Below are positions 14,357 to 61,301 of a stretch of 64,000 bases of DNA, one piece after another. The translations under genes and the position numbers were made by a program. Source of the DNA: Amoebophrya sp. A120. Its lineage: Eukaryota > Protista > Dinoflagellata. The stretch lies in assembly GCA_905178155.1 (NCBI GenBank), contig CAJINV010000003.1:4561863-4625862 (forward strand), written 5' to 3'. Every line of letters begins with the position of its first letter. Position 1 is the first letter of the stretch. The notes beneath the pieces are model-generated. The model saw nothing but the letters and a program-made list of their open reading frames with translations, was not told the DNA's origin and searched no databases.

Positions 14357-16410
14357 ATGCCACGGCGCAGCAGCGGTCGGACGAAGCTGGCGAAGCAGCA
14401 ACAGATTGTAGAGCTGTCCACACTCGCGGTCGCCAGTACGTTCTTGTTCCTTTCCTTCTGTTGGAGTCGCCACTCGATTCCGAAGTCGAGTCTGTCTCGC
14501 TACCTGGAGCGACTCATAGCAGAAAGTGAGCAGCTGAGCGATGGCGCCGTCCCCGGAAGAAATGGGGGCACGACGCCTATCAAATGCAAAAGTGTCTGGG
14601 TCTGGAAGAATGCATGTTTGTCATGCTTGTCTGGCATGACCCTTAAATCTGTCATGCACGTTACCCAAGAGCTCGATTTTTCTGTGATGCAGAAACGCAG
14701 TTTGTCATGCAGAATAGGCAACACGTAGAGGCTCAGAAACTTGTCATGCTGAGCCAGCACTTGTGGCCTCATCATGAGACGCCACACAGCATCACAAGTT
14801 TCCAGACCCAGACATTTTTACTTTTGATATCGCCACCACAGTCCTGGTTTTCAGTCATCCGCAACGCCTCGGTTAACCAGTACAAGAAACAGGCCATTCA
14901 TGACTCCTTCCAGAACGCGGTGGGAAGCATCAGCAAGGTGTTGGCCGAGTCGGGGTTGGCAGACTCGGTGGTTGCCCAGCGTCTCCTCTACGCACTGTTC
15001 AAAGTTGCGGAGGGCGACGCGTTGGGCTTCGAGAAAACCGCTGCTGCGGAAGCGGAGGAGATCAAAGAATTGTTTGGGGACATCGCTGTACCAGCCTCGG
15101 CGACCGAATCAGTCTCATTAGCGTCCCCGACCGATAATTCTTTGACGAAACCAGACGCGACCGCCGGGCTTTTTCCTCTCCGCGCACGCTCGTTTCGGGT
15201 ACTTGGCGACGCGGTGCTGGATTCTTTCGTGTTCACCCCGTGCTTCGGTTTGGCAGGATATCTCTTTCCGAAATACTCTGCGCAGGTGGAGGTCCGGCGC
15301 TATTTGCGCCGCTACGAGGACGCTTCGCTGGCGGCGAAGGTACTGTACGCACAGTTGATAACCGCAAAGCGCTTGCCCCAGCTGGCGCCGTCTTCCTCCG
15401 AGGGAAAAAAAGTGAAACCATCACCGGACAAGAAAAAAAAGAAAAAGAAGGACACGACCGGCGTCGCGACTGCGGGTCTTCAGGACCTTGCTGCATCGTC
15501 CGGCGGAGAAAAGACTATGTCTTCCTCAGATGACGCAACGGGCTTCGAAATCATCGAGGTCCAGGACAGCCACCCGTTTGACCGGATTGTCGTACGAGCA
15601 GTATTGGGCCTCGCCGGGGAAGATGCGGAGAACGACATAAGAAGTACGCTGGCACCAGAGCAGCTGCAAGCGCTCGAGCAGTTTACAGAGACAGTGCTAG
15701 AGGCCGGCAAAGAGGTTAGGCGGGGAAGAACGACGTCGCCGGCATCGGGCAGCAAACGCAAAGCCTCAGAAAGCCCGCTCGCCGGTGGGGCTGGAAATGA
15801 CGACGCAGTTGTTTTGTCCGTCGATGCCGCAAGGAAGTGGGGGTCAATTGCAGATTTTTTCCAGCACTGCATTGCACCAACGGCTGTAGCAGACCAGGTT
15901 AGGGAAATTTTGTTGCGGTTTCCGCTAGTGCTTCTCGCGCGGGACCTGGATCAAATGCTTTTCATTCACTGGCTGTGCGATTCTGGCAATACGGAGCTCG
16001 TAAGGTTTGTGCTCAGCGAAGAAATGCTTCAGCCGGTAGTGGAGGTATTGCAGCGGGCTTTTTCATCAAACGACAAGTGCGCACAGAATCCCTACACCGA
16101 TGCGAGGAGCGGAACTGCAGTCGCAGGGGCAGAGCCGGGCGCGGGGGGACTGGGACCGGTGTTTGCGGTTCCTAGCAGCCTTTTTGAGGAAAAAGACGTG
16201 TTAAGTGTTGACGTGCTGCGGAAAATTATGCTGAACCACCAGGACTGGGGCGCGGGTAACACCCCCTTGCATTACGCGTTTGATTGCGAGCAGGACGAAA
16301 TCATAGATCTTCTCTCCTCCGCACCGCATGTAGGCTTGATCGATCAGACAGCGAGAAACATGGACGGTCGCACACTCGAGAAGCTGTTGTCAGAGAGGTC
16401 GGCCGCGTAG
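14357..16410 (+). CDS. Protein with C-terminal ankyrin-like repeats, interrupted by one introner
   Basis: ATG 14357. Removing 14578-14834 (257 nt) joins ...GGTTP|PQSWFSV... in frame. Ankyrin-like NHQDWGAGNTPLHYAF...NMDGRT near the C-terminus. Confidence 0.75.
14578..14829. mobile_element. MITE-like introner, family A1 (252 bp), TSD ACGCC/TCGCC
   Basis: TIRs tatcaaatgcaaaagtgtctgggtctggaa ... ttccagacccagacatttttacttttgata. Highly similar over its full length to 60587-60838. Confidence 0.93.
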
Positions 16411-16565
16411 CAGGCTCGAGTGGAAATCGAAAGGTAAAGAAACAAATCCTCAGATAACATTGCACCTGCAAATAAACAGGCGTGAATAAACGTGCAGCCC
16501 GCAATCGGGGTCGTATCGATTCGCGTTTGAAACGAGTAACCATGAGCCTGTGAGTGAGCATTGCA

Positions 16566-16605
16566 GGCCCCACAGGCCGATCGCTGGGCCCCACAGGCCG
16601 ATCGC
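16566..16605. repeat. Tandem duplication of ggccccacaggccgatcgc (19 bp, period 21)
   Basis: Two exact copies at 16566-16584 and 16587-16605, in the spacer upstream of the DVNP-domain gene. Confidence 0.85.
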
Positions 16606-16844
16606 GTTGATACATAGTCATTGTAAAGTAAGACGAGTTTTATCTCGCGAGTCTTGTTTTGGGACGGAGAGTACGGAGAGAGAAATTTGGCCAACGTTGT
16701 GGCGCATTGTACGTTCGAGAGCGGCGTGCGAAAACGCTGAATCGGGACGGTCGCTGTATCAAAAATACGTCTGATATAGGAAATCGAAAATCTTAAGTGT
16801 GTACTGAAAGCTGATGAAATAATATTGCGCTCGGTGGCTCCACA

Positions 16845-19800
16845 ATGAATCAATTTCCTTTTGCTAGAAGCCGCGATCCCTACCACCAGGCGGGAGCGCA
16901 GATGCGGAAAAACTCCGGCAACACCGCTGCAGGAAAGCCTCGGCCCAGGCCGTCCGCAAAGCAGAAGGCCCCGGATGATACCGCAGAGGCCGCAACCGCA
17001 GGCACTTCTCCCGCCCTGAAGAAGCGAAGAAAGCACGCCGACCCGGGCGCGTCTTCGGGTGCAAACGCGGATTCGAAGAAAGAGGAAGCCACTAACAAAA
17101 AGAAGAAAAATCCTGCGGCAGAGAAAGTGAAGGCGCAAATCACGAGGCAGCAGCTCTCGAAGAAGGAAAAACTCCTGTGGGAGAAGCATCAGGCGCAAAT
17201 TGCTTTCGGCCCGACCGCCATGGAGCAAGTTTTCAGTGGCGAGAAGACCGTAACGGATTACGGTCTGCGCAAGCAGGACCTGATGCAGGACCCGGAAACG
17301 GGGCGGATCGTCTCGAAGAAGCAGTACCAGGCCCGCATCAAGCGATGGCACACGCCGGCAAATGCCGACGGAAGCGTGAATCGCAATTTTCACTGGAGTA
17401 AGGCGTTTGCGAAAGCGCGAGCGGAGCACGCGGGGGGCAAGAAGGCGACGCCGGATGGTACAGAGCAGAAACTCGCCGCGGAAGTAGACGAGGGATTTGC
17501 GGCTGCACAACAGGAAAACATGGCGCAGCTGCGAAGCGGTGTCGAGCCCTCGCGAGGTGGAAAAAAATCCCCAATGAAAGCCTCTGCATCTTCTTCACCG
17601 AACAGTGTGGAGCAGGGCAGGATAAAATCGGTGAACGTGTTTGCGTTGACGAAGCCCGAGCGGACTGGGCTGTTTGACCGCACGCGGGAGCTGTACACGA
17701 ACTCGGTTGCAGAAAGCGAGGCCGATCACCGGATGCAGGAGCTGGCGAAACGCTGGACCAGCAATTTGCTGAGGGAAGACGACAGCGGGCTGGACGTTTT
17801 GTGGTCTCACGGCGCCACGCTGGCGGGAGAGCGGGAGCAAGTTGCCAATCAAGACCAAGATGCGACGGCGGGACAAAGCGTACACGGCGGGAAAAATGAT
17901 CCGGTGCACGAGGAAAAGGTGGATTCGGAAAGCAACGCTTCGACTTCCTTGCTTGTACAGTTTTTGCGCCACTGCTTTTCGCGTGACGACGGTTCGATTG
18001 CGCCGGAGCAGCAAACCGACGTAGATGAGCGAAGCGGCCTTCATCCACCGGGGCCCCGAAAAGACAATGGGTCAGAGGGGAGCAGCTTTGCAGAAAATGC
18101 GAAGAACGACGCGATCAGCCCGCAGAAGTACTGTGCAGTTTTGCAACAAGAAACTACTCCTGTTATGCCCCCCGCGCCGGAAACCGCTGGAGCATCACCA
18201 AGAGCAGACGCAGCTACAGCCGCATCTCCAGCCGATTGCAGTTCCGGCCTTGGTATCGAGCCCGTCGCTGCTGGTGAGCCAAACACCGCGGATTTTGACA
18301 CTCCCGCAATCGCATTTGCAAATGAAGTTGGGTCACCTGCTGCACAAAATTCCCTAGATGAAGGCGATAGAAGAAGCAACCCGCCCGAGGAAAGGAAAAG
18401 CACAGGCTCAGTGTCAGGTTTACGTGCATTGGGCGAGTGTTCAGAAGACACGGCGAGAACAGCGTGGCACAAGTACTTTGCTCCGGAACTAGTGAAAAAC
18501 GACGATGGTGAAGCTGCGCTGACGCCCGTGTCGGTGAAGAGCCTTTGGGACGAGATGACGCAGCACTTCGTGCGTTCAACATTGGTTTATCAAATGTAAA
18601 AATGTCTGGGTCTGGAAACTTGTGATGCTGGGTAGCGTATCATGAGGAGGCTACAAGTGCTGGCTCAGCATGACAAGCTTCTGAGCTTCTAGGTGTTGTC
18701 TATTCTGCATGACAAACTGCGTTTTCGCATGACAGAAAAATGCGGCTCTTGGGTAATGTGCATGACAAATTTAAGAGTCATGTGCATTCTTCCAGACCCA
18801 GACATTTTTGCACTTGATATGGTTCGGGAATTCGCAAAGAAAGAGGATCTTGCGCCGCTGAAGCAGGTGGTGCCGCGGATGCAATGCGCTACGTCTTCTG
18901 TACGACCGACGACTGCAGCGTCTTCGGAGCGCCGGATGACCCCGGAGGAGGAAGACGTGTTTCTGCGGGAGTGTCGTGAGGCGTTGAAAGTGTGTGGGAA
19001 TCCAGCACTGGCAGCGAAATATTCCGGAACTTTGCCGCTGCTGGCGCAGAATGGTGAAGCCGTCCCACGAGGCGACGCACCGGAACAGCCACAGCTGCCT
19101 GAACCTGCGAGATCGCAGCAGTTCGCGAAAAAAGAAAATAAGAAGGAGAAAAAACCTATGCCGGAAGCGGTGAAAGAGAAGCTGCGCAAGCACAAGCAAG
19201 AACAGCGGGAAAAGAAACTGCAGGGGGAAGAGCCAGTGCGAATAAATAAGAAGGCAAAGGTAGACAAGAATGCTGAGCAGGATAGCGGAGACTACTACTC
19301 CTGGTACGACTACAATTACGATGATGCCCTCGACGGTTACAATTGGATGGAGCTTGACTACGACAACTATGGGTCATACGCGGACAAAGACGGATGGCCA
19401 GCATTCCCGGAGTATAACTCGTCCGCTTCTGCGTCGGTGTCACACTCGAAGTCGGCATCACGAAAGAAAAACGACAAGAAAAGCAAGAAGCTGCCACGCC
19501 GGGCCAAGGACAAAGCGAAGACGGAGATGAAGCATAGCCAGAACTTGAAGATGAAAGAAAGCGGCCGCAAGAAGGGGCCTTTGCCAAGAGAGATGAAGGA
19601 TTTTGAGAGTCTGCAACAAAAAGAAGACGGTGCGACTAAAGACGACGCGGACCATGGCCCAAAGCGAAAACCGCCGGAGCTGCGGCAGAACGTGGCATCG
19701 TACGGAGGGCCGGAGTGCTTTGTGTTCGAGGATGATGACATCAGTTCGGGCTCTTGGTCCGAAATTACTGACGGCGAAATGGAGCGGCTAGACGCGTACC

Positions 19801-19850
19801 TTCGCGAAGAGGAGGAGGAACAGAAAAGACTAGCAGCGCCAAAGGAGTAA
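16845..19850 (+). CDS. ~920-aa basic/disordered protein containing a DVNP-like (dinoflagellate/viral nucleoprotein) domain
   Basis: ORFs 16845 and 18693 join in frame (STLV|REFAK) on removing 18588-18824. A K-rich N-terminus is followed by QVFSGEKTVTDYGLRKQDLMQDPETGRIVSKK...WSKAFAKAR, resembling the DVNP core VxxGxxxKTxGGLxKxDLxKNKxGKIVSKK...WxKAxxKAR. Confidence 0.75.
18588..18819. mobile_element. MITE-like introner, family A1 (232 bp), reverse orientation, TSD TGGTT
   Basis: Reverse complement of the 14578/60587 element with a ~20-bp internal deletion. TGGTT at 18583-18587 and 18820-18824. Carries an in-frame TAA (18597-18599). Confidence 0.93.
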
Positions 19851-20060
19851 GTAGTCACATTCACTTGATGCGGATGGGAATCACACCAATGCCGCTTCCA
19901 AAAATGAAACAGGCAAGAACTTTGAGAAGCGCAATGGCCACGTTGTACTCATGTGCGACATGCAGTAGATTTGCAATGCACCAAGGATGCTGCATGGACA
20001 GCGCCTGGCTCATTCTTCAGTGCCTGTCTCCTTTTGGTCAGAGCAGTTGAGCGTAGGTTT

Positions 20061-27612: not shown

Positions 27613-28868
27613 ATGGCGACCACCATTTCGGAAAGCCCGAGCCGGCGAGAAGAAAGTAAGCGACTTCCACAGCTGTTGCGGGATGGATCCCTGGCCGATT
27701 GCGTGACCGCGGGTAATGCGGTCAGCGGCATCTGTGCCATCCTCGGGTGCATGTATGCGAGTAAGGAACATCTCCGGGACGTGCTCACACGGAAAAACGA
27801 CTCGGTTTTCTACACGGTACCGGAGCGGGACCTGGACCCGGCCTGGGCGCTGCGGGTCGCCTTCTGGTTTCTCCCCCTCGGGCTCGTGTGCGACATCATG
27901 GACGGCTTCGTAGCCCGGCTCCGGAAAGCCAGCAGCCCCTTCGGTGCGGTATCGTAAGGAAAAATCCCCCCTCCCCATATCGGAAACGGAAGACGCGCGA
28001 ATTTGTAATGCTGTATTTGAGTACACAAATCCACTTGTATTGCTAGAAGGCCAAGAGACGAAGCTGCGGCCTAAATTGCAGGCAATCTGTCATGCTGTTT
28101 CCCACGTCCAGTTGCCTCCTGTCATCCTGGAGCTGCAAGGCTTTCCCTCGCTAGACAGCACTACAGTCCGCATCTTTTGCCTTCTAGCATCACAAAGCTG
28201 ATTTGTGACCACAAATCTGCATCACAGATTTCCGTTTTGATATGGGGAGGGGGCATTTTTCATTGTAATATGCGGACTTGGATTCCCTCGCGGACCTGGT
28301 CACCTTCGGAGTTGCTCCCAGTGTGTTCGGGTTTGTCTTGGGCCTTGACGGGGGGTGGGACGCTTGCTGTCTGCTGTTTTTCTTGCTGTGCGGCGTCGCG
28401 CGGCTAGCGAGGTACAACGTCACCGCCTCGCTGCTCAGCGATACGAAGACTGGACAGGTCTCCTTTTTCCAGGGTCTGCCCATTCCCGCCTCGTTGTGGC
28501 TGTGCTTGTTTCTCTACATCGATTTCGAACTTTCACAAAAGGATACCAGCACCAACTTGGCCTCATCCGCTGCCGCTGGCCAAGCAGAAGAAAGGATCAG
28601 TTTCTTCGGGGGCGCCGTCCAGTACTACTCTGAGGGTGCGGCCCGGAGTGCCGAGCATTTCGGGCTAAGATTATTGCGCCCGGTAGTGCGAGTTTTCGGT
28701 TCACGACTGCACTTATTCTCTCTGTGCTACCTGGCCACCGGGTCGGCACTCATTTCCACGTTTCCTGTGCCGAAGCCAGACCTCAATTGTCAGAGGCGAA
28801 AAGACACGCTACCGCAACGAAGCAAGAGTGCACAGAAAAGACTGGAAAAACACATTGGAAAGCTGTAG
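27613..28868 (+). CDS. CDP-diacylglycerol--serine O-phosphatidyltransferase (PssA/CHO1 type)
   Basis: The CDP-alcohol phosphotransferase motif DIMDGFVARLRKASSPFGA|DLDSLADLVTFG is reconstituted on removing 27950-28275. Also ADCVTAGN, ARLARYNV and FFQGLPIP. Confidence 0.9.
27950..28270. mobile_element. MITE-like introner, family D (321 bp), TSD TGCGG
   Basis: Imperfect TIRs tatcgtaaggaaaaatcccccctccccatatcggaaacggaa ... ttccgttttgatatggggagggggcatttttcattgtaata. TGCGG at 27945-27949 and 28271-28275. Confidence 0.92.
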
Positions 28869-33838: not shown

Positions 33839-36800
33839 ATGCCAAGGTGCCTCAAAGTGGTCGCGTTGTTCTGCTGTGTTGCACAGGCCATCCAAGAACG
33901 GAAGGTGCAGCGGCAGCTCGAGGCGGAGCAAGATGCGAACTCGAGCTACCGCGGTTCTCTACCTCCGCCGCAGTTTCAAGGCCAAAACCAACCGACGTCT
34001 CCTGCGGGTGTGTCACCGTCTGTGCCTCCGGCGGCGTCCAATTACCAGGGTTCTCTGTCTCCGCCGCAATTTCAAGGCCAACAGACGTCTGCGAATGCGC
34101 CACCGTCTGTGCCTCCTGCAGCGCACTACGGGAGTGCCGCGCCGGCGCCAACTGGAACGCCACCTACTGGGGCTTCTCATGGTCATGGCGCTGCACCCTG
34201 GATGCCGATGGCGCAGAATGCCATGCGTTCTTTCGGCGACATGATGCAGAATTTTGTTCCTCCGCGTCAGCAGGAGCAACACCAGCCGCCGCATCATGCG
34301 ACTCAGCAGCAGCACCAGTCGCACTATGCGACCGAGCAGCAGCACAAGCCGCACTATGCGACCGAGCAGCAGCACCAGCCGCACTCTGCGCCCAGCCACT
34401 CCACCGCTGCTGCTCCTGCCGCGCTTCCGGAGACAGCCCCGGCGCACTACACTGGCGCTGCAGCACCTGGTTTCGATTCGCCATCTCAGCCGGTCAAGCG
34501 CGAAGAAGTTTCGGCCCCCAATGACCCGTGGGGTGTCAGCGATGAGTCCACCTCGCAATTTCACAACGCATACGTGGTGCAACAGCCTGAGCCGCAACAG
34601 CATCCGCCGGTCGACGTGTCCTCCACGTCAACCGCACATAATGAACCCCCGCAGCACCACGCTCTACACCATGCGCCAGAAGACCTACAACAGCATCTGC
34701 AGCAACATGGGCCACAACTCCAGCAGCACGCACACCAGCTACAGCAGCTGCACGGGCCACAATTCCAGCAACACGCACAGCAGTGGCATCAACAGGCCGG
34801 GGGCCACGGACTCCCGGTCTGGAACTTCCCTGGTCAGGAGCAGGAGGTGCATCAAGAGCCGTACTATGGTCCGTCCGAAGAGCAGTTGCCGACACCCACG
34901 GAACGTCCACAGCAAGGACAACAGGATGTGCAACAGCTGCAGATGGAACATGCGCCACCAGTGCAACACCACGAGTTTGCCTACACACACCAGCCCATGC
35001 AACCTGCGCCACAAGTACAACGTGTTCATCATGCACACCAGCCGGTGCAATATGCGCCACAGCAAGTGCAGCAACATGCTCCTGCGCATCAGCTGGTGCA
35101 CGATACGCCACCGACGCACCAGCACGCACAGGAAGGACAGGTGCAGGAGCATATGCCACAAGCACCCCCCGCAGCCTCGTTCGGTGATCAGTTGGGCTCC
35201 TTCATGCGCAACTTGCATAGCAGTCTCCCGCCGCAGCAGCAGGCGCAGTTTCAGCCGTTCGTGCAAGAACTCCAGCAAAAACAGTTTTTCGGGCCCACGG
35301 GGCGCGAAGGCGGAAAGTTTCTGAGCGAGAAGGCCATACCTGCAATGGGGGAGGCAGTTGCGCAGACTGCGGCAACTTTTCTCGGCTCCGATCCTTTGCG
35401 AATTTCGGCCCTGGACGAAATGAACATCGTGTATCAGTCACACCAGGAGCTTTTTGCGAACGCAACGAATCTGATCAGCGCCGCCGAGCAGACCGAGGGA
35501 GGACTCGATCGCATTCGCGAGAATGTGATGCAGCGGGTGCGGGAAGCTTTTGACGAAGTGATTGAGAAGGTGAAGTCGCAGTTCGCCGGATTGCTAAACA
35601 CGTTCGTCGAAAGCGACCGAAGCCTTACCTTCCGGACGGAGCTTGCCACAACGATGTTCCAGTACCCCAGTGATGACGCTTTCATCGATGACATTCTGAT
35701 GGACACGACACCGCTGGAAGTGATGCAGCAAGCGAACATTACTTCGGCCGAAGAGTATGCGAGCGCGCGTCAGACGGCATCCAACACGTTCCAGGATGCG
35801 ATGCAGAGCATGTCTGAGGGACCCGATGGTGGCAGCCACGAGAATGTCGCGCACACAGCTGTTACGGAAAAGCTTGCGCCCGAAGGCGATGACGTTATCG
35901 TGCAGAAGCTCGGCTTCAAGAAGGACGGAAACCAGGTGGAAGCCTTTCTCAACGACGTCACAGCGGCACAGAAAACGTACATGAATAGTGAGTGCGTTCT
36001 GTATTATTTTTTAACGCTCTCCAATAACGGCCTGGCGCTGGTTAACATTTTTTTCTTGCATTACGAAAGTACAAGGTTCTACGGCGATGAGGTTTCGTTC
36101 CGCCTTTGGAGAAACGTGACGGCTGCATAGAAGCCCAGATGATCAGGTTGAGACAGATGAAATAGTACATTTCTACTTATTATTTGTTAACATGATCTGC
36201 TCAGCTGCCTGTGACTTAAGGTTAAGACGTATGTTCTCCAGGTTTATGACCGACTTCAAGCAGGCGGGTGAGTACTTCGGAGGCTCCGAGATGGCCACCA
36301 GTGACTACATGTACGACGCGAAGCATCGAATTCTTCAGCGGTTCCAGGGTGTGGTTCAGTCAGCGGACAAAGTATTTGTGGTTTTTTTCCTGACACCCTA
36401 CGGAGAATAGTATTATTTCCAGTGGGGATGCATGTACTAGTCTTTCTCTTTTGCATGATCATTTCTGTCGCCATCCCATCCTTTTTCTTGGCTTCGCATA
36501 CAGATTAAGTACTCTCGATTTTTTTTTTCAACCCCACAGGAAACGCTGGCAAAGATCATGGTGATGCCGAGCGTTCTGCACCACCCCCACGTCTATGCAC
36601 TGCAAACACAGGCATTTGGTTTTGTCATTTGATTATGTCGCTCGCAAAAAAGAAAATGAAAAGATACAGAGGATTTTCTGCTGGTGGTTTTTCCCAAACG
36701 CTATCTATCATTCCAGTTCTGATAGATTGCGAATCCATATTCTCCTGTGTGATTCATGCTATTTTCTCATGTATGTGACGGACGCGTTGCCATTCGCCTC

Positions 36801-38418
36801 CGTGGCTCCTGGACCAAGATAGATAAATAAGTATCCCCTTCCGTATTCTGTGCAGGATGAGAAGTTTCTTATTTCGTTTTTTTTTTCCGACTCAGAATCT
36901 GAGTCGGAAAAAAAAAACGAATCAGATGACATGTTTGCAGCGTATACCGTGCCCGGCTACACTGATTCCGCGTACAGTGTGCACAACATGTCGGGAAGTA
37001 TGATGGAAGCTGCCCACCGCATGATCCGAGACGAATACCACGTCGTGGCTATCCTCCTGAGTAGATCATCCTCTACCATGACGCAATTCATATGCGTTTT
37101 ACCGCGAAGGCTGTGCATGTGCATGGATACATTCGCTCCGCATGATTAGGAGCATTTCATGTAGTTGTACCACTTTCCTAGCCTGTCGCGTACAGCCAAG
37201 AAACTTCTAAATTTAGCCATGAAAAAATTCGTTTGGTAAGTCTACCTTTTACTTTTGTGAACATGGTAAGTCTACCTTTTACTCAGGATAGTGACTGTGA
37301 ATTTTCGAGCAAAGTACGGCATCACCCGGGAGGTACAAAACATGCTTGCTCAGTTGCCTGTATGTAAGGGTATAGCAAGGATGCGGCCTCCTGAGCCGAG
37401 ATAAAAATGCCATGAATCATATGAATGCTACAAAATATAATCAACGTCAGGGGCCGAGCAAGGGGTACCGGCAGGACCCGATCAGTCAGCAGTTCCTGAA
37501 GTATGCCACGCCTCCGCAAGCCCAAGCCGATTCGGGCGCCGCGCCCAGCGGAGAGGAAGGGGCGTCGGTCGGCGAAGTGAACAAGACCGAGGAGGTGGGG
37601 AAGGACGACAGCGGTTGCTGTGGCTACGGGACGACGCCGGAGGATGAAAGCAAGAAAACCGAGGAGGTCGTGGGGGAGAACGCCGCCGAGAGCAATGCGA
37701 ACGACGGTGAAAGCAAGGCTTTCGTCCAGGTGAACGCAGCCGCGACGATGAGCGCGGACTTCCTGGCGAGCGAGAAGTCACTGGGTGGTCAAGATGAACA
37801 GCACCGGGACGAGCCGTTCCCGTTTGCCAGCGAACCAGTTGCTGGGACAGAAGACGCGGCTTCGTTTCTTCAGTTCAAGTCCAACGCTATGACAACCTCC
37901 CGTGGGAATTTTTCCAAAAAGATGAAGAGATTTGATTTCTTCCGCTAGTAAGTACATCAGAAACGTAACTTCTTTTTGGTCGCAGAGCCCTTGAAGATGC
38001 AAAGGCGACGTTTGCAAACGCTACCAAATCTCTACCTACTAGAATGATTCCCACTTGGCGGTAGTATACCAGCGTACGCAGAATCGGCCTACGGTATGGA
38101 GACTGACAGTTCATCCTATGTTCAACTCGCATTCATTCTCGGGGAGGAATACTTAAGAATGTAGCGCGATGTGATGTTTGATTTCAGAAACTAATATAGC
38201 TGTCCCCCAAAAAATGAAAGATCGTATTCACTTGAAATGGAAAAACAGCTTCTCCAACGAACGACGCACCGATTCCGTGGGGCTTCGTGTTCGCGATTCT
38301 GTGCGGGCTGATGTTCACCGCCGGATTCGTGCGGGTTGGCTACAACTACTATCTGGCACAGTACAAGGCGACGCTGAAACCGGAAGTTGACTACTACGTC
38401 AAGGACGTGGGGATCTGA
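33839..38418 (+). CDS. Signal-peptide-bearing Gln/His/Pro-rich multi-exon protein with probable C-terminal TM exon (type I surface protein)
   Basis: MPRCLKVVALFCCVAQA signal, internal peptide repeats, several GT-AG introns and a degenerate introner. An unlisted short frame at 38249-38418 encodes IPWGFVFAILCGLMFTAGFVRVGYNYY...DVGI*. Linkage of the last exons is not fully resolved. Confidence 0.6.
37050..37290. mobile_element. Degenerate family-C-like introner (241 bp), TSD GTGGC/GTGAC
   Basis: Left end tatcctcctgagta, right end ttttactcaggata. Removing 37050-37295 gives the open frame EYHVVA|VNFRAKYGITRE, which joins ORF 37412 via a GT-AG intron ending at 37450. Confidence 0.75.
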
Positions 38419-39688: not shown

Positions 39689-42600
39689 ATGGTATCTGCT
39701 AACGAAAAGAAGCGGCGAGACCGCGAGAAGAAGAAGGCACAGGAGAAGCGACGAAAAACGCGACAGGCCGAGCAACGCGCAGAGGCCGCGGATCGAGAAA
39801 AAGTACAGGCTCGCAGAGAGGTGCTTGGGGGAAATGAAGCACAGGAACCAGAGGGCGACGAAGAATACGTGATTCCAGAGCTTCCATTCAACCAGGACGA
39901 CAGCAGGTTCGACGAGTACAAAAAAGTTTTCCACACCTTTTCCATAGCCGGCGACGAGGACGAGAAAGAGGATGGGGACGAGGGCAAGAAACCCAAACCC
40001 GGCGAGAAAAAGTCCAAGCTCCAGCTGCGCAAGCAGGTACAAGAGGGGGAGGACGGCGACCGGGAGAGCGGCGTAGCGGATGTGTACGAGCGCTCTAAGA
40101 AAAAGAAGAAGAAGAAGTTTCTGGTGCACGAGCTGAAACAGGTCGTGGAGCGACCCGACGTGGTCACAGAAGTCGATACCACCAGTCCCGATCCGAAGCT
40201 TCTCGTGTATGATTTTCTTTTTTGCATGATCCCGATAGTGTTTACGGCCTTTGTTATTGTTTCAAGAACGCACAGGTCGTCGCCTGCCGCGTTTGTGCAT
40301 GTCGTCTTATCAGATGAAGCCCTAAGGTCCACCTAAGGTCTTGAATCCATGAAATTGTTTATCTGCTACAGGTTTTTGAAGGCATATCGCAACACGGTTC
40401 AAGTGCCACCGCATTGGTCAGCCAAACGAAAGTTTTTGTCGATGAAGAAGGGGCAAGAGAAACCGCGATACCGCCTGCCCGAGTTTATCGAGGCGACCGG
40501 AATTCAAAAAATACGAGAGGCAGTGCTGGCGAAGGAAGAAGGACAAGGTAGCAAAATTGAGACACTACTTCTCGGATGAACAGCAGCATGAAGATACAAG
40601 CTCTTACTTTAAGATTCGCTGAGTTTCTTTGAAATTCAATATGGTCCTCTTCGCGCGGTGAGATTGCATGGATAGGTTCAACCATGTTCCCCACGCAAGA
40701 ATAAATGGAGATTTGCGCATCTACATCAATCACTTGGAATTATGAACACTGAACAGGCTCCACAGGCAGGGCGAAAGCGAGGTTGACGGCGAAGATGGGA
40801 AAACTGGATATCGATTACCAGGTTCTACACGATGCCTTTTTCAAATACCAGACACGACCCAAGCTGACCGGACACAACGATATTTATTTCGAGGGAAAGG
40901 AGCAGCAGATGAAGATGCAATCCCAAAAGCCCGGCGGGAAACTTACCGCCCCACTCATGCAAGCGCTAGGTATTGATTCTTGTACACTCCGGATTCTGCA
41001 TGTTTCAGTTTCGCCCACACGTCTCCTCTGCGATGCGGCTCTGCGGTGGTCATATTAGCAAATAAGCCAATGTCAGCAACAAGAAGCCATCGCGAGTGTG
41101 CAGCATGGAGATCTTGGTATATTGATTACGAGTTGAAGATGTGCCGACCAATTTGTTCAGGTATGATCGACGAGAACCAGCCTCCCCCCTGGCTTTTCAA
41201 CATGCAGCGCTACGGGCCCCCAAAGGCGTATCCGATGATGCGCATTCCAGGAGTTAACGCCCCCATCCCCGAGGGAGCAGAATACGGCATGAATCCGGGC
41301 CAATGGGGAAGACCTCCCCTGGACGAATATGAAATGCAAAAATGTCTGGGTCTGGAAGATTGCAACTTGTCATGGTAAATCTGAAGCATGCAAAAATCTG
41401 TGTTGCATGAGTGCCAAAAGCTGTCCACTTTTGACCAAGTTGGAACGGAGTTGCTCATGCAGAATAGGCATGGCAGAGACCTCGCAGAGTCTGTCACGCT
41501 AAGTCCCGCATTCCAGACCTCATGGGTCATGGAAAATCTGCATGACAAGTCTACACTCTTCCAGACCCAGACTTTTTTGCGCTTGATAACGAATTCGGCA
41601 ACCCAAAATTCGGCGACTGGGCCAAAGAACACGCGGCCCGCGCAAGAAGAGCCCAGTATTATTATTGAAACATTTTTAAAACAGGGCTACCTAAGCACAC
41701 ACAAGTGTGAAGATGAGCTTGAGAACAAGAAGTAGTGATTCACAACTTTCTAAGAGCTTGTTTGCGTTCTTTGAGTCGTAGGCTAGGAAAGTTATCCTTC
41801 ACTGAACAATACTACCACAGAGTGGACGACAATACACTTTGGGGAGAAGCTGAAGACGTGTCAGATGATGAGGAGCAAATGCAGGCCGAGGGGCCTGAGG
41901 AACAAGCAGGAATGTCCGGCACTGCCACCCCAATGGTGGGACACGCGACCCCTATGGTACTTGAGTTGGCACATCAACATTTCCACTTCTTTATCTCTGT
42001 AAAGTCCAGCAAAAATTTTAGCGTTTTCATCGCGGAGGATGGCGTTTTATGTGTGTATTTGTCCGTCGTGGCGCGACCTTTGCGACTCTGTCTGATTGAC
42101 ATGTTCTCAATGATTGATTGAATATCAGATCGGGGTAGCGACGCCACTGGCAGGCGCAGGGACGCCACTCATTGGCAGCGGGTACAGAAGTACATCAGGA
42201 ATTTCTTCCGTGACTTCGAACTTAACTGGCGGCCTGCAGACTCCCACCATGAGTATGCAGTACGGGTATGGAAGTGCGCAAACAGGCGGGGTGAGGTCTG
42301 GCAGCATGACGCCCGGACCACAGCTGTTTCAGGTGCTCGAAGAGCAGAAGCGGGTGGCTGGCGCTGGCGGAGTTTTTCCAAGTGCGCACGGATACCGTGC
42401 GGGTGGGATTGCCACGCCCGGTATCGCCACACCCGGTATCGCAACACCGGGAATCGCAACACCCGGAATCGCGACACCGGGGTTTGCAACGCCAGGAATC
42501 GCAACGCCGGGCATTATGCGAGGTCCACAAAGCGGAATTGCGTCCGTGGGGAGAATTCCAGGTATGCACTTGCTTTAAGAAGTGACCTTGGATGAATACA

Positions 42601-46649: not shown

Positions 46650-49600
46650 ATGTCGGGCCTCATCCCGCGCGATTACCAAATCGAGGCCGCGAACTCGGCG
46701 ATGAATGAAAATATCATCGTAAATTTGCCAACCGGGTCGGGGAAAACGCTCATTGCCGCTCTAGTACATGAGCAAATGAAGTCACGGATGACCCTCGTGG
46801 CGTGCGCGTCTGTCGCGGTTATAGAACAGCATACCCAGTTTTTTCAATCCCGAGGGATTCGAAACGTGATCATTGACACCGCAGCTGGCCTGAAAGCACG
46901 CATCTTCGATTATGGGGGCGTAGGTATCTATTGCAAATGCTAATTCCTGTTGATTTCATCTCGATAATTACTGAGTAGACAAACTGGCGGCCTCGCTAAT
47001 TTTGCAATTGGTTGGTAGGCACACAGACGCTTACGAAGATAGTTTCTTTGTTTAGATGGAGGAAGAAACCAGGATCGACTTGTGAGCAACGGTCAAGATG
47101 AATTATTTCGCCAAAAAAATCAATTCAGGTGATGAGAACGACGAAGAGGAAGACCCGGACGTGAACGCACGGATGCTCGAGGAACGAAGAGAAAACATTC
47201 GGCGAAAGGTTGCTGGGGTGCAGCTGGTGGTCTTTGATGAATGCCACCACGCAATCGGGCACCACCCCTACGTGAAATTCTGCGAGCTCCTGTTTCAGTA
47301 TTGTTTGGATAAAGATTTGTGAAGTTGGAATTTGTTGGCGATGTGGACGTAGAGCTAGAGGTTGCGCGTTTTTGATGAAAAATCAAAACCCATGCCAGTG
47401 GGCAGCTTTGTAGTTTTCTCCTGGCGCTGTCTGAGTTTGATGCTAGATCCATCTCGATAACGTAAACATGACATCAAATAACGCAGGTACAAGGAACAGG
47501 AGTCATTTCGGGTGCTTGGGCTGACCGCGAGCTTCATTCACGGGCAGTTCGAGCAGATCTCGAAGAAGCGGAAGCGGTTGGAGGACAACCTCCGGGCGCG
47601 GCTGTGGACCCCCACGAACTTTTTGGTGAAGAACCCGGACAAGCACTTTTACAAGGTGGAGTACAGCGCGCCCAAAAACCTGGTGTTGAGTAAGCGCGAC
47701 ATCGAGAACCGCAGTTTCGAGATGATGCGCCCGATCCTGAAATCCCTTCCCTACGGCATGGCCTCCATCGTGAGCAAGGAGGTTTCCAAGTCGGCCTACC
47801 TCTGCTACTACATCCTGGGCGACGCGGGCTGGTCCTTTTTTCTCCGCGACGGGCTGGTCCCGTACCTGGAGGCCAAATTGCGGCAGAAGGCCGAGTACGT
47901 GGTGCGGGATGCGGTGCAGCAGCACGAACTGAACAGACGCTACGCCCTGGAACACGACGACGACAAGTACAACAGCGAGCAGAAGGATTTTCCCGTGGAT
48001 CAGGGAGGTGGAGGGAGCCTCGGGACGAACGGTGGTCCACCGCCCAACAAGAAACAGGCTCGCGGCCCCTTCGAAGACTACAGCGACACCGCCTCGTTGT
48101 ACTCCAGCGCCCCGTCTCTACCGACAACTTCCGACCTGGAGTCACAGCGTGCCGAGTTCTTCGCACCGCTCCAGCGGTACCTACAGCAAGCCATCCCGAT
48201 TATTCCCCAAGTCAGCCCCAAAGTTGAAAGTTTGCTCGAGATCTTGCTGTCCTGCACGTCCTCCAGAACGGTAAACACCTACGTCACCGACCCTGTCTTT
48301 GGCGGGCCGGCATACGCGGTACAAATGTTTTCTTGCTGTAGCGTTCTGTCAGACACGAGTGTTGACACAGTTAGGTCGCGCACCAGCTGTCCTGCTTTCT
48401 GTAACCCGTACTCATCACGTGACCAAAAGAAACTATGGGACTCGACTGACTACTAGAGTTTGGTCACGTTGCCTTGTCCGTCTCAAAAAGGCATGCTCAA
48501 AAGGAAAGATATATATCTGTAGCACCGACTGAATTTCTGTTTTGCAAAATTTACGTGACGACAAATACAGCAACAAGTGGAGGAAATCGACACTTCTCTT
48601 GTTTTCGTGGAGCGTGCGGTACTCTGTATTCCGCTGGCGAAGATAATCGAGATGCGCACACGCCGCGTTTGCCGACCAGTGATGGGTGTGCAGAGCATGT
48701 CCGCGGAAGTGCGGAACTCGACGCTGCAGGCCTTCAAAGAGGGCAAAGTCCGAGTCATCGTCGCTACCAGCAGTCTCGAGGAAGGTAAAGAAGCATAGGA
48801 CTTGAGAAATTACCACTGCATTCACATTGTTGTATGCTATGATAGCAGCTGCGATCATCTCCTGCTTTCAGTGTATGACAGTATAGTTGGAAGACAAAAC
48901 TCTTTTTTCTACAAACGCTCCGCTCCCTCTCCCTGGTAGTTCACTTATGATTTGCTATTTTGTCCATACAGGTATCGATGTTGCGGACTGCAAGGTGGTG
49001 GTACGATTCGATTACTTCTCTAGTGTCCGGTCGCACATCCAGGGCTCGGGCCGCGCGCGGCACCCAGACGCGAAGATTTTTTACTTCGAGCAGGAACCCG
49101 AAGTGGAGGAGTACAAGGCGAGCCTGATGACACTGGCGGCAGCCAACCGCGACCTGGAGATTCCGGACCTTGATGCGCAGCAGCGACGGCAGATTCCGGA
49201 GCTGCAGCGCGGGACGGGAAACAACGGCAAGGAAGGCAAAGAAGGCGACGAGGAAAACAACCAGGAAGGCGATCCGAAGAGCCGGACCGACAGCAAGCGA
49301 AACCCCGGGCGCAAGTGCCAGGACCCACCGCACCTCCGCGTCCGCGAGTACCCAACGCTGACACTGTGCGGCGTGGGCCACTGCTTCGACAAGGAAGAGA
49401 TATCAAATGCAAAAATGTCTGGGTCTGGAAGAGTGGAAGATTTGTCATGCAGGTTTTCCATGATCCATGAGGTCTGTAATGCATGGTCTAGCATGACAGA
49501 TTTTAAGAGGGCTTCCTGATGCCTGTTCCGCATGAGAAATTCCCTCTCGCCGTGGGAAAATCTGGAGTCTTCTCGCTGGTCATGCATTACAGATTTTTCT

Positions 49601-51288
49601 CGAATCCGAAGACAGCATGACAAGTTGCAATCTCTCAGACCCAGACACTTTTGCATTTGATAAGCGACCACGTGGGACCACGTTTCCAACAAATCCCAAC
49701 GGGTGGCCGTCTGTATCCCCCAGAAAAAGACCGACAGGTCATATTTGTAATGCAAAAATAAATAGACAAAAAAATCTGTATTGCATGCCCTAAACAGGAT
49801 GTTATGGCCTCGCCCATGACAGATTTTCCTGTGTATTTATTTTTGCATTACAAATATGACCTGTCGGTCTTTTTCTGTGGGATAGTCTGCACCAAGTGCA
49901 AGCGCGCCACCGTGGTGATCAAGTCGCGGGTGCTGGGCCAGGGGAGGAAGAAGAAGGAGCGGTACTACTGCTTTGGGGGCCGCGAGAATGACTGGGTCTG
50001 CAAGTGGGCCACGCCGGAGGAGCTGGAGAAGGCGAAGACCATGACCATGGAAGACCTCCTGGAACAGGGGCACGAGGTCGGCACCCACGCGGCGAAGGCG
50101 ATGCAGGTGGCCAAACTGGACGCGGAAGCGCGCCGGGCCGAGGCCGAGAAGCGCAAGAGGGAGGCGGAGAACGGGGAGGCGCAGGAGTTCGCGACGCCGC
50201 CCGACCAGTCTCCGCGCACCGAGGACGACGGTGGAAATAACGTGGACGCCGCGGACGCGAGAGTGAAGGACCATTTATTGCAGGCTTCGGCGGAGGACGG
50301 CGAGGGTGCTGCGCAGGTAGCGGAAAAGGGCGATGTGACGTCTTCCAAAAAGACCGACGCAGAGGGGACGAATAACAACGGTAGTACGAAAAGACAGAAT
50401 GTGTCTCCCGCCAAACCCGCACGGGGGAGCGCCTCGGTGTCGACGAACGCGTCAGGGCAGCGCGTTTACAACTTGCTGGAGGGACCGCTCGAAGGTCCGA
50501 TCGTCAGTTTGCGGAAAGAAAAGGAAGAGAGTACCGAGATGGAGAAAATGCTTGCTACCGGCGGGAACCGACCCATGAGCTACCAGCCCGTGCAGCAGAG
50601 CTACCTGGGCGGCACCGTTGCAGGCGGGTATAGTAATCCCACCGGTCCGGGGGGCCCGGCATCCGGTGTCTACCCCGCGAGCTACGGTGCCAGTCCAAAC
50701 CGCAGCGGTGGTCCCGGTTCGTATGGAAACTACCCGGCGACCGCACCGCCGAGGCCGGCTTCTCTCGGGGGAGTCGGAGGCGACTCGTCCGCGCCGCAGT
50801 ATAGTGCAGTTCCGAAAGGTGGGCGAGCCCCCAGTACTACAGGTAGTACTACCGGTGGTCCGAAAGGAGCGGCCGCCGCGACGCCGACCCGCGAACCCCC
50901 TGGTCTCGCGGCCGAGCAACCGCAGAGCAGCACATCGAAGGAAGGCGCTGTCGTAGGGAGTGAGGCGGGAGAACTACAACCATCAGGCACGACGGCCAAC
51001 AAGGCTCCTTTGCCGGTCATCGACAAGCCAAACCCGTCGCTTCCCCCCATCATGCCCCCGGTCCTCGCACACCTCAAGCGCACAAGCTCCAGTGCGCCGG
51101 AAGAAGCTGTCGCCGCTCCGGTTCCACCGCCGCTACCCGCGGGAGGCCCGCCTCCGCCGCCCGTTGCCCGACCACCCCCACCCCCGCCACCGGGGCTTTC
51201 TCCCGACGACGACCCCGCCGACGACGACTTGCGAGCCCTCGAAGAGTTCGGTCACGAGGAAAACAAAAAGTTTGAGCAAGTGCAGTAA
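46650..51288 (+). CDS. Stand-alone Dicer/RIG-I-type DExD/H RNA helicase with Cys-motif region and Pro-rich tail
   Basis: PRDYQ, LPTGSGKT, DECHHA, LGLTAS, VFVER, IVATSSLEE|GIDVADCKVVVRFD and HIQGSGRAR. GT-AG introns at 46924-47128, 47298-47486, 48271-48570 and 48785-48971, plus two introners. Confidence 0.88.
49401..49662. mobile_element. MITE-like introner, family A2 (262 bp), opposite orientation to the 41328 copy, TSD AGAGA/AGCGA
   Basis: TIRs tatcaaatgcaaaaatgtctgggtctg ... cagacccagacacttttgcatttgata. Contains an in-frame TGA (49517-49519). Removing 49401-49667 gives FDKEE|TTWDHVS. Confidence 0.93.
49714..49884. mobile_element. Foldback-like introner, family B (171 bp, ~66-bp TIRs), TSD GTCTG
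   Basis: tatcccccagaaaaagaccgacaggtcatatttgtaatgcaaaaataaat... is mirrored at the right end with ~4 mismatches. GTCTG at 49709-49713 and 49885-49889. Removal gives VAVC|TKCKR. Confidence 0.95.
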
Positions 51289-58661: not shown

Positions 58662-59716
58662 AGGTAGGACGCGGCTTACCGCAGTGTTCGGCTCGCGCGT
58701 AAGGTTCACTTCGCTGGAGCAGAAACACAGACGCTGGCGTGTATGTCTTCCTTTACGGCTGAGAAAGTCGAAGCCTATCTTTATGTTTATGGTGAAGATG
58801 ACGAAACTTTTTCATGCAACTGCACTGCTCAGGCAGCGAATTGGAATAGCTAGGATTAGAAAATTCTTGAGAGAGAGTAGCTCTTTGATTTGTTTATTAC
58901 GGAAACAAAAAATAGAAACACTGACGCGTAACTGCGACCGCAACGAATGTCGCAAAGTCTGCTTTTGCGTTGAGACATACGAAGTCCTCACTCGTTGCTG
59001 TTCGGGCTCGTTAGAACGCCGACTGATGTGATGTACAGGGAACGAAAGTGAAGACATGAAGAAGCGTATTGGTATTTGCTTCTTGCCCTAACGTGATTAT
59101 ATCAGTAAAATTGGTCTACTGGGGGTTATGTATGAAGCATAAGAAATTTCGTATGAAAAATTGGTTCGACAAAGAAGCCGCACTACTCGTAGAAATATTT
59201 TTCGGTGTTGTGCAGCTTGTGTATTTCGTGACGCAAAAGTAGAACGGGCGCATGTTCATCACGCGAAAAAAAAACGCTTGTATGTGCGGTCAGATCAGCA
59301 ATTCGTTCAGTGTGGGTTTTACTAGTAGACAGAGGCGCTTACGCGTCGCTGGGGGTCCTGCGTTCATATCTAGATAAGTTTTTAAGTCTTCGATCGTCGC
59401 TGTTCGTATTCGTTGAGGGAAAATCGCACCAAATCTATGTCGAAAAGCGCAAGCAAAAGTGGCTTCATCCTTTGGTCGTACCGCGTTGATGTTGCGCTAT
59501 TCTGTTAACTTATTTTTTTTTTCATTTCTTTTCATTTCAGTCTAGCAGGTTTTTTTTTGTTTGGAGCTTTTGTATCGATCCAGGAACGGGGGTGGTATTA
59601 TATTTGCGTTAAAGTCTTTCGCGGGGTGCAGCATCGTGTTTGCGTGATTGTTTAGCCTCACCGCTTGCGTAGAAAGGCGAGAAGAATAAAACGAAAACCG
59701 AGTATAAGAAAACACC

Positions 59717-61301
59717 ATGTTGGAGCTGGAGGAGTTCTCGTTTCGGGACCTGGCCTCCGTGTTGTTTCCCGACTGGCTGAGCTCCACGGACGAGGTGATT
59801 GGTATCATCGCCGAGGCGCAGAGGACCGGGCACCTGGCAACGGAGCGCGCCGACGTGAAGGAGGTCGCGTTCACGATGAACAAAGTGAGTGCCACCGGTT
59901 CGTCCTACACTACGCGCTACCTCTGCGGGGCGGATTTACCCGTCTTGGCGGAGTTGGAGAGCGGCGTTTGCTACGCTTCCGCGCGGGGCGAGCTCGGACT
60001 GGTTGTCAACTACTCGATGAGTCGGACGAAGTGGTTTCCCAGCCTCGGGCTCCCGGAATACGAAGTGTGGTTCTACGATGCCGTTTTGATCCTGGTCGGG
60101 CTTCTCTGCTCCCTGTGCCTTTGGTTCAACGTCAAGGCGTTTTTGTCGCTGTTCGCGGCCGCCCGCGGGGCCAAGCCGGTCCAGTTGGTCGTCGAAGACG
60201 AGGTGACTTTGGTGGACGCGAAGCAGTATCAGCAGGTCGCTCCGGTGCTCGATGTCACGGCCACGACCACGCTGCTTGATGATGAGGTCGACCTGGAGGA
60301 CTCGGCGGTGGAAGGTACTCAATATTTATGGACTCGTTTGATAGGACATCACTGCTACACTTTGCAGAATATTAAGCAGTAGCTTATGGACACGACATCG
60401 ATGTTGAAATGATGTATGATGTGCTCTTTGTACTGTAGCTCCTTGTTGGACTTGTAAAAAATCTACATGATCTACAATCGCAGATAAATCGGTTTCGGTG
60501 GAGCCCGTTTCGGTGGTTGAGAAGGAAGAAGAGAAGGTACCAACGCCCGTGACCGAGGCTTCCGGAAGCGAGGACCGCCTCCAGGATAGCAAATGCAAAA
60601 ATGTCTGGGTCTGGAAGAATTCATGATTGTCATGCTTGTCTGGCATGACTCTTAAATCTGTCATGCACGTTACCCAAGAGCTCCGTTTTTCTGTGATGCA
60701 GAAGCGCAGTTTGCCATGCAGAATAGGCAACACCTAGGAGCTCAGAAACTTGTCATGCTGAGCCAGCATTTGTAGCCTCGTCATGAGACGCCACCCAGCA
60801 TCACAAGTTTCCAGACCCAGACATTTTTACAGTTGATACAGGATGCTGTCCCGCAAGAGGCCGCGGCGGTTCCGGAGAGAACGACGGCCATCCCGGAAGG
60901 TTAGAAAGATGTTTTGATTTAATATCTGTGAAGTTGTTGAGCGCCGGGTGCGCGTATGGCGGATTTTATGTCTGCGTTCCTCTGTCTGTTTCTAGCCGTG
61001 CACCTTTCGAAAGCAGAGGCAAGGTAGTTGGTTCCATACGCTAGTGGCTGTACAAGTACAGATGGTCGAAAATAATAATCAATGCAACCAAGGTTCTTAC
61101 GAAGAGACTACGCCCGCACCGGCTGTGGACGACGGTGGCGCTAGTTCTTCGTCGGACATGATCTCCCCCGCTATGACCCAGACGACGGCGGGTGCCTCCA
61201 AAATCTCCAAGGGAACCCGTACCTTGAAGCGTCGCTTGTCTTCGTGCTGCGGGGTTTCGAAGGTGCAGGAGGAAGCCACGTACACCCTGGACTCCGCTTA
61301 A
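59717..61301 (+). CDS. Hypothetical single-pass membrane protein, multi-exon, with one introner
   Basis: ATG 59717. TM-like AVLILVGLLCSLCLWFNV. GT-AG intron from ~60314. EDRLQ|DAVPQE is joined on removing 60587-60843. Last exon ends in TAA at 61301. Confidence 0.65.
60587..60838. mobile_element. MITE-like introner, family A1 (252 bp), TSD CAGGA
   Basis: TIRs tagcaaatgcaaaaatgtctgggtctggaa ... ttccagacccagacatttttacagttgata. CAGGA at 60582-60586 and 60839-60843. Same length and orientation as the 14578 copy. Confidence 0.93.

What the first reader, a model, noticed from the sequence alone, without database searches (positions are those of the whole stretch)
14578..60838. The same element is removed in either orientation, implying symmetric, structure-based recognition
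Seen: all host genes are on the + strand, yet family A1 occurs forward (14578, 60587) and reversed (18588), family A2 in both orientations (41328 vs 49401), and family C in both (8260 vs 8589). Spliceosomal donor, branch and acceptor signals are strand-polar. Inference: only the symmetric features can define the intron, namely the TIR stem, the UAUC/GAUA ends and the TSD. This suggests hairpin-guided splicing by a modified spliceosome or an endonuclease/ligase route. Precise DNA-level excision is an alternative.
Basis: partly seen in the sequence, partly recalled or inferred. Interest (0 to 1): 0.85.

Follow-up and report, generated by a model that had tools for sequence, protein, structure and literature searches.

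The report
Amoebophrya introners spliced in both orientations
These are already-described transposon-derived introns of the parasitic dinoflagellate Amoebophrya: they are removed cleanly from the RNA whichever way round they sit and without the usual GT-AG signals, likely by a modified spliceosome guided by their paired ends.

Summary
Nine 171-321 nt elements have terminal inverted repeats (TIRs, TAT-N7-AAA) and 5-bp target-site duplications (TSDs). Families A1, A2 and C occur in both orientations in + strand genes. The window encodes proteins identical to records labelled Amoebophrya sp. A120. Spliced RNA contigs lack element plus one TSD at four sites directly, including A2 both ways and A1 reversed; three more sites are indirect. 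No compatible cut reads GT/GC-AG. DNA-like contigs keep the elements.

The class, its hairpin and a U1-less spliceosome proposal are published (Farhat 2021). A TIR shows the same linear sequence either way round, and either-orientation introners with ordinary splice sites are known. The invariant end is UAU/AUA, not UAUC/GAUA. Mismatched TSDs show a cut that is polar along the transcript: 3-5 nt of the upstream copy are kept.

Mechanism: modified spliceosome 0.5, dedicated nuclease/ligase 0.38, DNA excision 0.03. The scan's notes held no earlier report of this.

The parts
8260..8538 (+). Introner, family C, orientation 1 (279 nt), TSD CCAAC
   Evidence: removal inferred from RNA contig coverage and from annotated protein P0003, which fits only element+5
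8589..8865 (-). Introner, family C, opposite orientation (277 nt), TSD CCGAA; 50 nt separate it from 8260-8538
   Evidence: indirect RNA support
14578..14829 (+). Introner, family A1 forward (252 nt), TSD ACGCC / TCGCC (mismatch at position 1)
   Evidence: X3 and X6 contigs both stop at 14831, so the right-copy T is not in the RNA; interior letters absent from these runs' contigs; removal +5 joins 97+525 codons
18588..18819 (-). Introner, family A1 reversed (232 nt, 20-nt deletion), TSD TGGTT
   Evidence: X3 record 12 joins 18582 to 18820; removal +5 joins 590+341 codons
27950..28270 (.). Ninth introner, not in the finding (family E, 321 nt), TSD TGCGG, in a CDP-alcohol phosphatidyltransferase gene
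   Evidence: Pfam match breaks at profile positions 61/62 on its two sides; only +5 of +3..+7 joins 134+197 codons; no RNA laid
41328..41588 (+). Introner, family A2, orientation 1 (261 nt), TSD ACGAA, in a PSP-domain gene (likely SF3B2; name recalled)
   Evidence: joint 41322>41589 in 4 of 4 runs; PF04046
49401..49662 (-). Introner, family A2, opposite orientation (262 nt), TSD AGAGA / AGCGA (mismatch at position 3), in a helicase gene
   Evidence: joint 49398>49666 in 4 of 4 runs keeps the left letter, so the cut follows TSD position 3, 4 or 5; A25 orthologue gapless
49714..49884 (.). Introner, family D (171 nt, 66-nt arms), TSD GTCTG
   Evidence: joint 49708>49885 in 4 of 4 runs
60587..60838 (+). 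Introner, family A1 forward (252 nt), TSD CAGGA
   Evidence: 93% identical to 14578; + strand coding score 16.8 vs 2.4 after removal; no RNA laid
46650..51288 (+). Host helicase gene holding two introners and four RNA-supported GT-AG introns
   Evidence: P0001 (A120 label, 100%) and P0002 (A25 label); joints
3444..10834 (+). Host gene of unknown function holding both family C introners
   Evidence: P0003, 2030 aa
9828..9974 (+). Example ordinary GT-AG intron (one of 11 seen), donor GTAC, used as the host's splice-signal reference

Best explanation
These elements are non-coding, TIR-bounded introners with 5-bp target-site duplications that are removed from spliced RNA, together with exactly one duplicate, in both orientations and without GT-AG ends, likely by a modified U2-type spliceosome. 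Shown: the anatomy; removal of element+5 nt restoring the reading frame; no canonical ends; a cut that keeps at least 3 nt of the upstream TSD copy. Inferred: they spread as non-autonomous DNA transposons (MITE-like). The TIR stem likely holds the two ends together. The 5' cut likely falls one base before the TIR, giving N|UAU, which matches the host donor GUAY at +2 to +4 with only +1 relaxed. The 3' cut would then be set by distance, 4 nt past the stem, not by AG. Orientation does not matter because the TIR supplies the same sequence and the same stem either way round.
For: RNA joints of element+5 at 4 sites, on contigs that also skip GT-AG introns. Retaining the element gives a stop within 2-50 codons at 6 of 6 sites tested. 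The A25 orthologue is gapless across two junctions. Predicted stems have z -6.7 to -18.6 against 25 shuffles each. Host donors are GTA in 11 of 11 and pyrimidine at +4 in 10 of 11; register k=4 (4 nt of left TSD kept) gives N-TAT and lies inside the RNA-allowed range 3-5. In Farhat Table S4 all 9 listed A120 motifs have T at +2 and all 9 A25 motifs start TT, where the TIR starts TTA-RR. Nearly the whole spliceosome was found but not U1 snRNA. A U2 spliceosome adapted to TIR/TSD-derived non-canonical introns is reported in Fritillaria.
Against: No lariat, branch point or enzyme is shown. No 3' AG preference is left: at k=4, AG in 7 of 89 copies (p=0.84 against background) and GT in 31 of 89 (p=0.42). 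In yeast the +1/-1 and -2/branch pairs define the 3' splice site. A branch-like TTGAT lies 11 nt from the end in family A only, inside the stem, and not at that place in C, D or E. The stem would bury the donor. Table S4 placements may reflect the aligner's choice inside a perfect repeat. The register rests on two mismatched sites and one RNA sample. In Euglena, similar introns leave as circles and are thought to use separate machinery.
Confidence: 0.5

Rival explanations
1. A dedicated, spliceosome-independent endonuclease plus ligase reads the base of the TIR stem, makes staggered cuts whose overhangs sum to 5 nt, and joins the exons, as proposed for Euglena nonconventional introns.
For: TSD composition resembles coding background and shows no GT or AG enrichment. 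GY..AG is possible in only 8 of 72 strand-called copies. Stems are very stable, and pairs 1-3 are kept in 127-128 of 131 copies. Euglena introns need N3-CDG..CH'G-N5-6, an offset stem of similar geometry, and give circles.
Against: No enzyme identified. TIR pairs 4, 5 and 7 pair in only 79, 95 and 58 of 131 copies, and the conservation of the others may be for transposase binding. The N|UAU resemblance to the host donor in two strains would be coincidence.
Confidence: 0.38
2. The joints are reverse-transcriptase template switches across a hairpin between direct repeats; in the cell the element stays in the mRNA or is bypassed by the ribosome.
For: Direct repeats plus structure are the known recipe for false non-canonical junctions (PMC4176328, passages). 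All RNA evidence here is assembled cDNA contigs of one sample.
Against: Retention truncates conserved proteins. No contig in X3 or X6 carries the window's own letter at several interior positions of 8260, 8589 and 14578. At 49401 the left TSD letter is kept, whereas an enzyme stalled at the stem base would be expected to have copied the right copy first (inference).
Confidence: 0.05
3. The elements are excised precisely from DNA in some cells or life stages, and transcripts come from empty sites.
For: The anatomy is that of a DNA transposon. Only 15 of 267 joints were displayed, and contigs drop rare alleles.
Against: In run X1 (DNA-like: even depth, ordinary introns retained) unbroken contigs run from flank into four elements at background depth 25.5-28.3 with no differences. 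The assembly holds all nine. Cut-and-paste excision normally leaves footprints (recalled), not a polar choice of the upstream TSD copy.
Confidence: 0.03
4. Each orientation uses its own cryptic canonical splice sites.
For: One element (60587) can be read GA..AG at k=3, a variant used by dinoflagellates. GY..AG is possible on either strand in 21 of 124 related copies.
Against: 0 of 9 window elements allow GT..AG or GC..AG at a cut compatible with element+5 removal. RNA joints fall at the TSD in both orientations.
Confidence: 0.02

Closest known systems
Amoebophrya A120 introner elements (Farhat et al. 2021, PMC7789003)
   Same: Same organism label; IR motif TAT + 7 nt + at least three A; 3-5 nt direct repeats; about 240 nt; non-canonical ends; hairpin model; co-oriented genes; U1 snRNA not found.
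   Different: No difference in kind. In the text I searched, 'orientation' refers only to genes, and splice positions relative to the hairpin are called variable or unknown. Both-orientation removal and the polar cut are details I did not find there. Figures were not visible.
Polarella glacialis and Aureococcus introners (Roy et al., bioRxiv 2020.10.14.339549; Huff 2016 only as cited there)
   Same: TSD-flanked DNA-transposon introners, several classes creating introns in either orientation, removal restoring the mRNA.
   Different: They use GT/GC/GA and AG carried by the element or recruited from the TSD, so their TSDs are sequence-biased. Here no such bias was found.
Euglena nonconventional introns (PMC12501133; review PMC11282704)
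   Same: Non-GT-AG ends, paired termini offset from the cuts, TSD-like repeats, MITE origin proposed.
   Different: Their code is N3-CDG..CH'G-N5-6|R with a short core, and the excised introns are circles. Here the ends are TAT..ATA with long stems, overhangs summing to 5 nt, and unknown products.
Fritillaria borealis non-canonical introns
   Same: TIR/TSD-derived introns with non-canonical ends, removed by an adapted U2 spliceosome.
   Different: They keep preferred dinucleotides (AG-AC, AG-AT); here both terminal dinucleotides vary with the TSD.

Membership tests
Amoebophrya A120 introner elements | IR motif starts TAT, 7 variable nt, then at least three A | tested here: met
   17 of 18 window ends start TAT (60587 starts TAG); 245 of 262 ends of related copies fit; definition
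Amoebophrya A120 introner elements | Direct repeat of 3-5 nt at the exon/intron boundary | tested here: met
   5-bp TSD exact in 7 of 9 window elements and 113 of 131 related copies; other lengths at most 11 of 131
Amoebophrya A120 introner elements | Removed from RNA with non-GT-AG ends | tested here: met
   4 direct joints; no GT/GC-AG register in 9 of 9
Amoebophrya A120 introner elements | Repeated and absent at the orthologous site in A25 | tested here: met
   Repeated. P0002 is gapless at two junctions; this is protein-level only, and A25 genomic DNA was not seen.
Amoebophrya A120 introner elements | Assignment to one of the 1,954 published families | not testable with these tools
   The supplement gives counts only; 'TATC' has 0 hits in its text
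Canonical U2 spliceosomal intron | GT/GC donor and AG acceptor | tested here: not met
Canonical U2 spliceosomal intron | Branch point and lariat intermediate | tested here: inconclusive
   Motif scan finds TTGAT at -11 in family A only, and a motif in only 3 of 11 ordinary introns; lariats cannot be tested here
Non-autonomous TIR DNA transposon (MITE) | TIRs, fixed-length TSD, short and high copy | tested here: met
   X1 depth over elements far above flanks (not a copy number)
Non-autonomous TIR DNA transposon (MITE) | Cognate autonomous element or transposase | not testable with these tools
   No genome held. Farhat found no transposase in A120. An A120 TIR introner family with Copia/Gypsy homology is reported; no link to these families was tested.
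Euglena-type nonconventional intron | N3-CDG..CH'G-N5-6|R signature | tested here: not met
   Ends are TAT..ATA with overhangs summing to 5 nt; signature
Euglena-type nonconventional intron | Excised as full-length circles | not testable with these tools
   Only contigs of the right strain were available

The most novel reading that the evidence does not exclude
Amoebophrya runs a second, spliceosome-independent mRNA splicing system. It is a hairpin-guided nuclease and ligase that needs no splice-site dinucleotide, cuts with a fixed transcript-polar stagger equal to the 5-nt target duplication, and so makes any insertion of these transposons harmless in either orientation. It would be convergent with Euglena nonconventional splicing.
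Probability: 0.35. Interest if true: 0.8.

Novelty: already known. Interest (0 to 1): 0.33.

Why it matters
How Amoebophrya removes tens of thousands of non-GT-AG introns has been open since 2021. This window adds two usable handles. Both orientations of one family are removed, so every needed signal lies in the TIR and TSD. Mutated TSDs act as natural markers that place the cut, which aligners cannot do inside a perfect repeat. About 1 copy in 10 has such a mismatch (15 of 148 match 4 of 5), so existing DNA and RNA reads could fix the register genome-wide. The class itself is not new.

Tried and rejected
No whole genome was held, so no genome-wide orientation or transposase search was possible. 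The TIR pattern found nothing in viral contigs. A search of longer proteins with the DVNP-containing ORF found none.

TIR polarity is inconclusive. The 3' TIR was more diverged from the majority 9-mer than the 5' TIR in 24 vs 11 (p=0.04) and 33 vs 17 (p=0.03) copies, but 27 vs 17 (p=0.17) in a re-run on a differently selected set. The test was post hoc. I first took the recurring mismatch at TIR pair 7 for a selected bulge; related copies show recurring end variants instead.

TSD mismatches in 11 strand-called related copies could not place the cut without RNA or an ancestor. An alternative reading with a 2-bp TA duplication was rejected: 5 bp is exact in 127 of 148 copies, 2 bp in 17. The '+5 scores best in 65 of 89' control is biased, because strands were called on the +5 join. 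Huff 2016 was not held. Earlier scan notes gave one unrelated hit and two blanks.
Full report
1. Observation. The seven coordinates named are the starts of TIR elements. A pattern search finds nine in the window: 8260, 8589, 14578, 18588, 27950, 41328, 49401, 49714 and 60587, against 0 or 1 in each of 20 block shuffles. All are 171-321 nt and flanked by a 5-bp direct repeat, exact in 7 of 9. Interior-only alignments confirm the orientations: A1 forward at 14578 and 60587 and reversed at 18588; A2 opposed at 41328 and 49401; C opposed at 8260 and 8589. All 11 ordinary introns seen in RNA contigs read GT..AG on +. Pfam hits are on + ORFs, and none of 22 minus-strand ORFs tested hit.

2. Organism. 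One ORF carries a DVNP domain. Two window ORFs are 100% identical to proteins labelled Amoebophrya sp. A120, and one has an orthologue labelled A25.

3. Removal from RNA. Runs X3-X6 are one sample, held as contigs; the tool only guesses that they are RNA, but they skip GT-AG introns. In one search all 12 listed joints stand on +: nine GT-AG introns and three introners. The introner joints are 41322>41589 (266 = 261+5), 49398>49666 (267 = 262+5) and 49708>49885 (176 = 171+5), each in 4 of 4 runs. In one search, X3 record 12 joins 18582 to 18820 (237 = 232+5). So A2 is removed in both orientations and A1 in reverse, directly. At 14578, contigs of X3 and X6 both stop at 14831 with further letters unlisted, and no contig has the window's letter at several interior positions. 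For family C, one contig depth accounts for 223 nt of a bin in which P0003 exons predict 225, the interiors are likewise absent, and P0003 fits only removal of +5 and +5 among 49 offset pairs. P0003 is an annotation, so it is not independent of RNA data. The tally is 4 direct, 3 indirect and 2 untested of 9. Retention would give a stop within 2-50 codons at 6 of 6 sites tested. The spliced helicase aligns without gaps to its A25 orthologue across two junctions.

4. Not DNA excision, on present evidence. Run X1 is unlabelled but DNA-like, with even depth and ordinary introns retained. Its contigs run from unique flank into four elements at depth 25.5-28.3 with no differences. Contigs drop rare alleles and 252 joints were hidden, so rare empty sites are not excluded.

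5. No canonical ends. For each element I listed every cut that yields the element+5 product. None of nine reads GT..AG or GC..AG; one reads GA..AG. They hold 131 family A copies, 113 with an exact 5-bp TSD. GY..AG is possible in 21 of 124 on either strand and 8 of 72 on the called strand. A coding model trained on the window called the host strand for 73 of 131 copies at margin 3 (cross-validation 95 of 97 right) and 49 at margin 5 (68 of 68). Among confidently typed copies, A1 was 6 sense and 3 antisense and A2 7 and 11 at margin 3. There is no sign of an orientation bias, but these copies have no RNA data and the sample is small.

6. What orientation does and does not show. It shows that the signals lie in the TIR and TSD. 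It does not show that they are structural, because a TIR reads the same from the transcript's 5' end either way round. Polarella classes, and Aureococcus as cited there, create introns in either orientation with ordinary splice sites. The stems are real as predictions (z -6.7 to -18.6), but pairs 4, 5 and 7 form in only 79, 95 and 58 of 131 copies, while pairs 1-3 form in 127-128. The invariant end is UAU/AUA.

7. The cut is polar. At 14578 the RNA keeps the left copy's letter at TSD position 1. At 49401 it keeps the left letter at position 3. If one register holds for all, 3, 4 or 5 nt of the upstream copy stay in the mRNA, so the intron carries 2, 1 or 0 nt before the stem and 3, 4 or 5 nt after it. 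At k=4 the intron starts N-UAU. The host's donors are GTA in 11 of 11 with a pyrimidine at +4 in 10 of 11. The published lists of predominant motifs have T at +2 in all 9 A120 and all 9 A25 entries, and the A25 TIR starts TTA plus two purines. This is suggestive only: an aligner may place junctions by donor likeness inside a perfect repeat, and TA-like starts could match by chance. No preference for G at +1 or for AG at the 3' end remains (31 of 89, p=0.42; 7 of 89, p=0.84). A possible 5'/3' TIR asymmetry did not hold up across analyses.

8. Mechanism. I favour, at 0.5, a U1-less or U1-divergent U2-type spliceosome that reads the TIR start as a relaxed donor and sets the 3' cut by distance from the stem. 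It would have to give up the +1/-1 and -2/branch pairs that define the 3' site in yeast. A dedicated nuclease and ligase, as suspected in Euglena, stands at 0.38. Template switching is 0.05, DNA excision 0.03 and cryptic sites 0.02. Spread as non-autonomous DNA transposons is inferred from anatomy; the mobilising enzyme was not found or sought.

9. What is known. Farhat et al. 2021 describe these elements in A120: more than 60% non-canonical introns, IR motif TAT-N7-AAA, 3-5 nt repeats, hairpin model, U1 not found, alternative splicing mechanism proposed. I read the abstract, sections 10, 11, 12, 16, 25, 32 and 36, a passage search, part 1 of 5 of the supplement and supplement passages. Its figures (Fig. 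3, 4, S19-S25) were not visible and may bear on register and orientation. Their note that 15% of canonical A120 introns share the IR/DR layout may partly reflect introners with a chance GT-AG register (inference). Read as passages only: PMC12130899, PMC9860276, bioRxiv 2020.10.14.339549 (29; supplements not seen), PMC11585973, PMC4176328, PMC11453091. PMC11282704: passages and section 6. PMC12501133: abstract and discussion. bioRxiv 2025.08.15.670264: abstract. Searches listed no paper whose title or passages read state both-orientation removal or the cut register for Amoebophrya. The library lacks most subscription journals, so this is not proof of absence.

10. Verdict. The feature is real and RNA-supported, and the class is already known. 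Interest 0.33, for an open mechanism and a direct way to map the cut.

Noticed in passing
window 27950-28270: A ninth introner with degenerate outer TIR (family E) splits a CDP-alcohol phosphatidyltransferase Pfam match exactly between profile positions 61 and 62; relatives at 83-98% identity occur in L038 and L042.
   Followed up: partly
window 16818-19850: A DVNP-family match (E 1.5e-8, residues 135-176 of the ORF) lies inside a reading frame of about 930 codons once the 18588 introner is removed. DVNPs are usually small proteins (recalled). No longer homologue was found.
   Followed up: partly
window 41328-41588: An introner sits in a PSP-domain gene, likely the U2 snRNP subunit SF3B2 (name recalled), so the spliceosome's own parts depend on introner removal.
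   Followed up: partly
window 41395-41544: Contigs match this A2 interior with loose ends; in X3 and X5 the 3' loose end finishes in a branch-plus-AG-like motif (table 7). This may be an A2 fragment inside an ordinary intron elsewhere in the genome.
   Followed up: no
window 14800-14832: Run X9 (probably another strain) has 71 reads with an A-type TIR in a different flank, so one related element stands unspliced in that RNA.
   Followed up: no
L001-L154: A metagenome assembly carries families A1, C and E at 83-98% identity to the window's copies, with no long match to the window's unique flanks; it may be the same or a close species.
   Followed up: partly
L001-L154, strand-called copies: Element starts fall in codon phase 1 in 43 of 89 copies against 23 and 23 (p=0.011), which is phase 0 at register k=4. 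The window's own elements do not show this.
   Followed up: partly
window 49396-49400 and 49663-49667: The mRNA keeps the left TSD, which codes Glu; the right copy would code Ala and the A25 orthologue has Thr. The exonic copy may be the one that mutated.
   Followed up: no
window 46516: X3 and X6 contigs have one extra T here relative to the window, upstream of the helicase start; possibly a homopolymer error.
   Followed up: no
window 36873-36921: A perfect 24-bp inverted repeat with no TSD found.
   Followed up: no
window 42390-42524 and 34274-34393: Coding tandem repeats of 15 nt (7 copies, GLTT-like Pfam match) and 30 nt.
   Followed up: no
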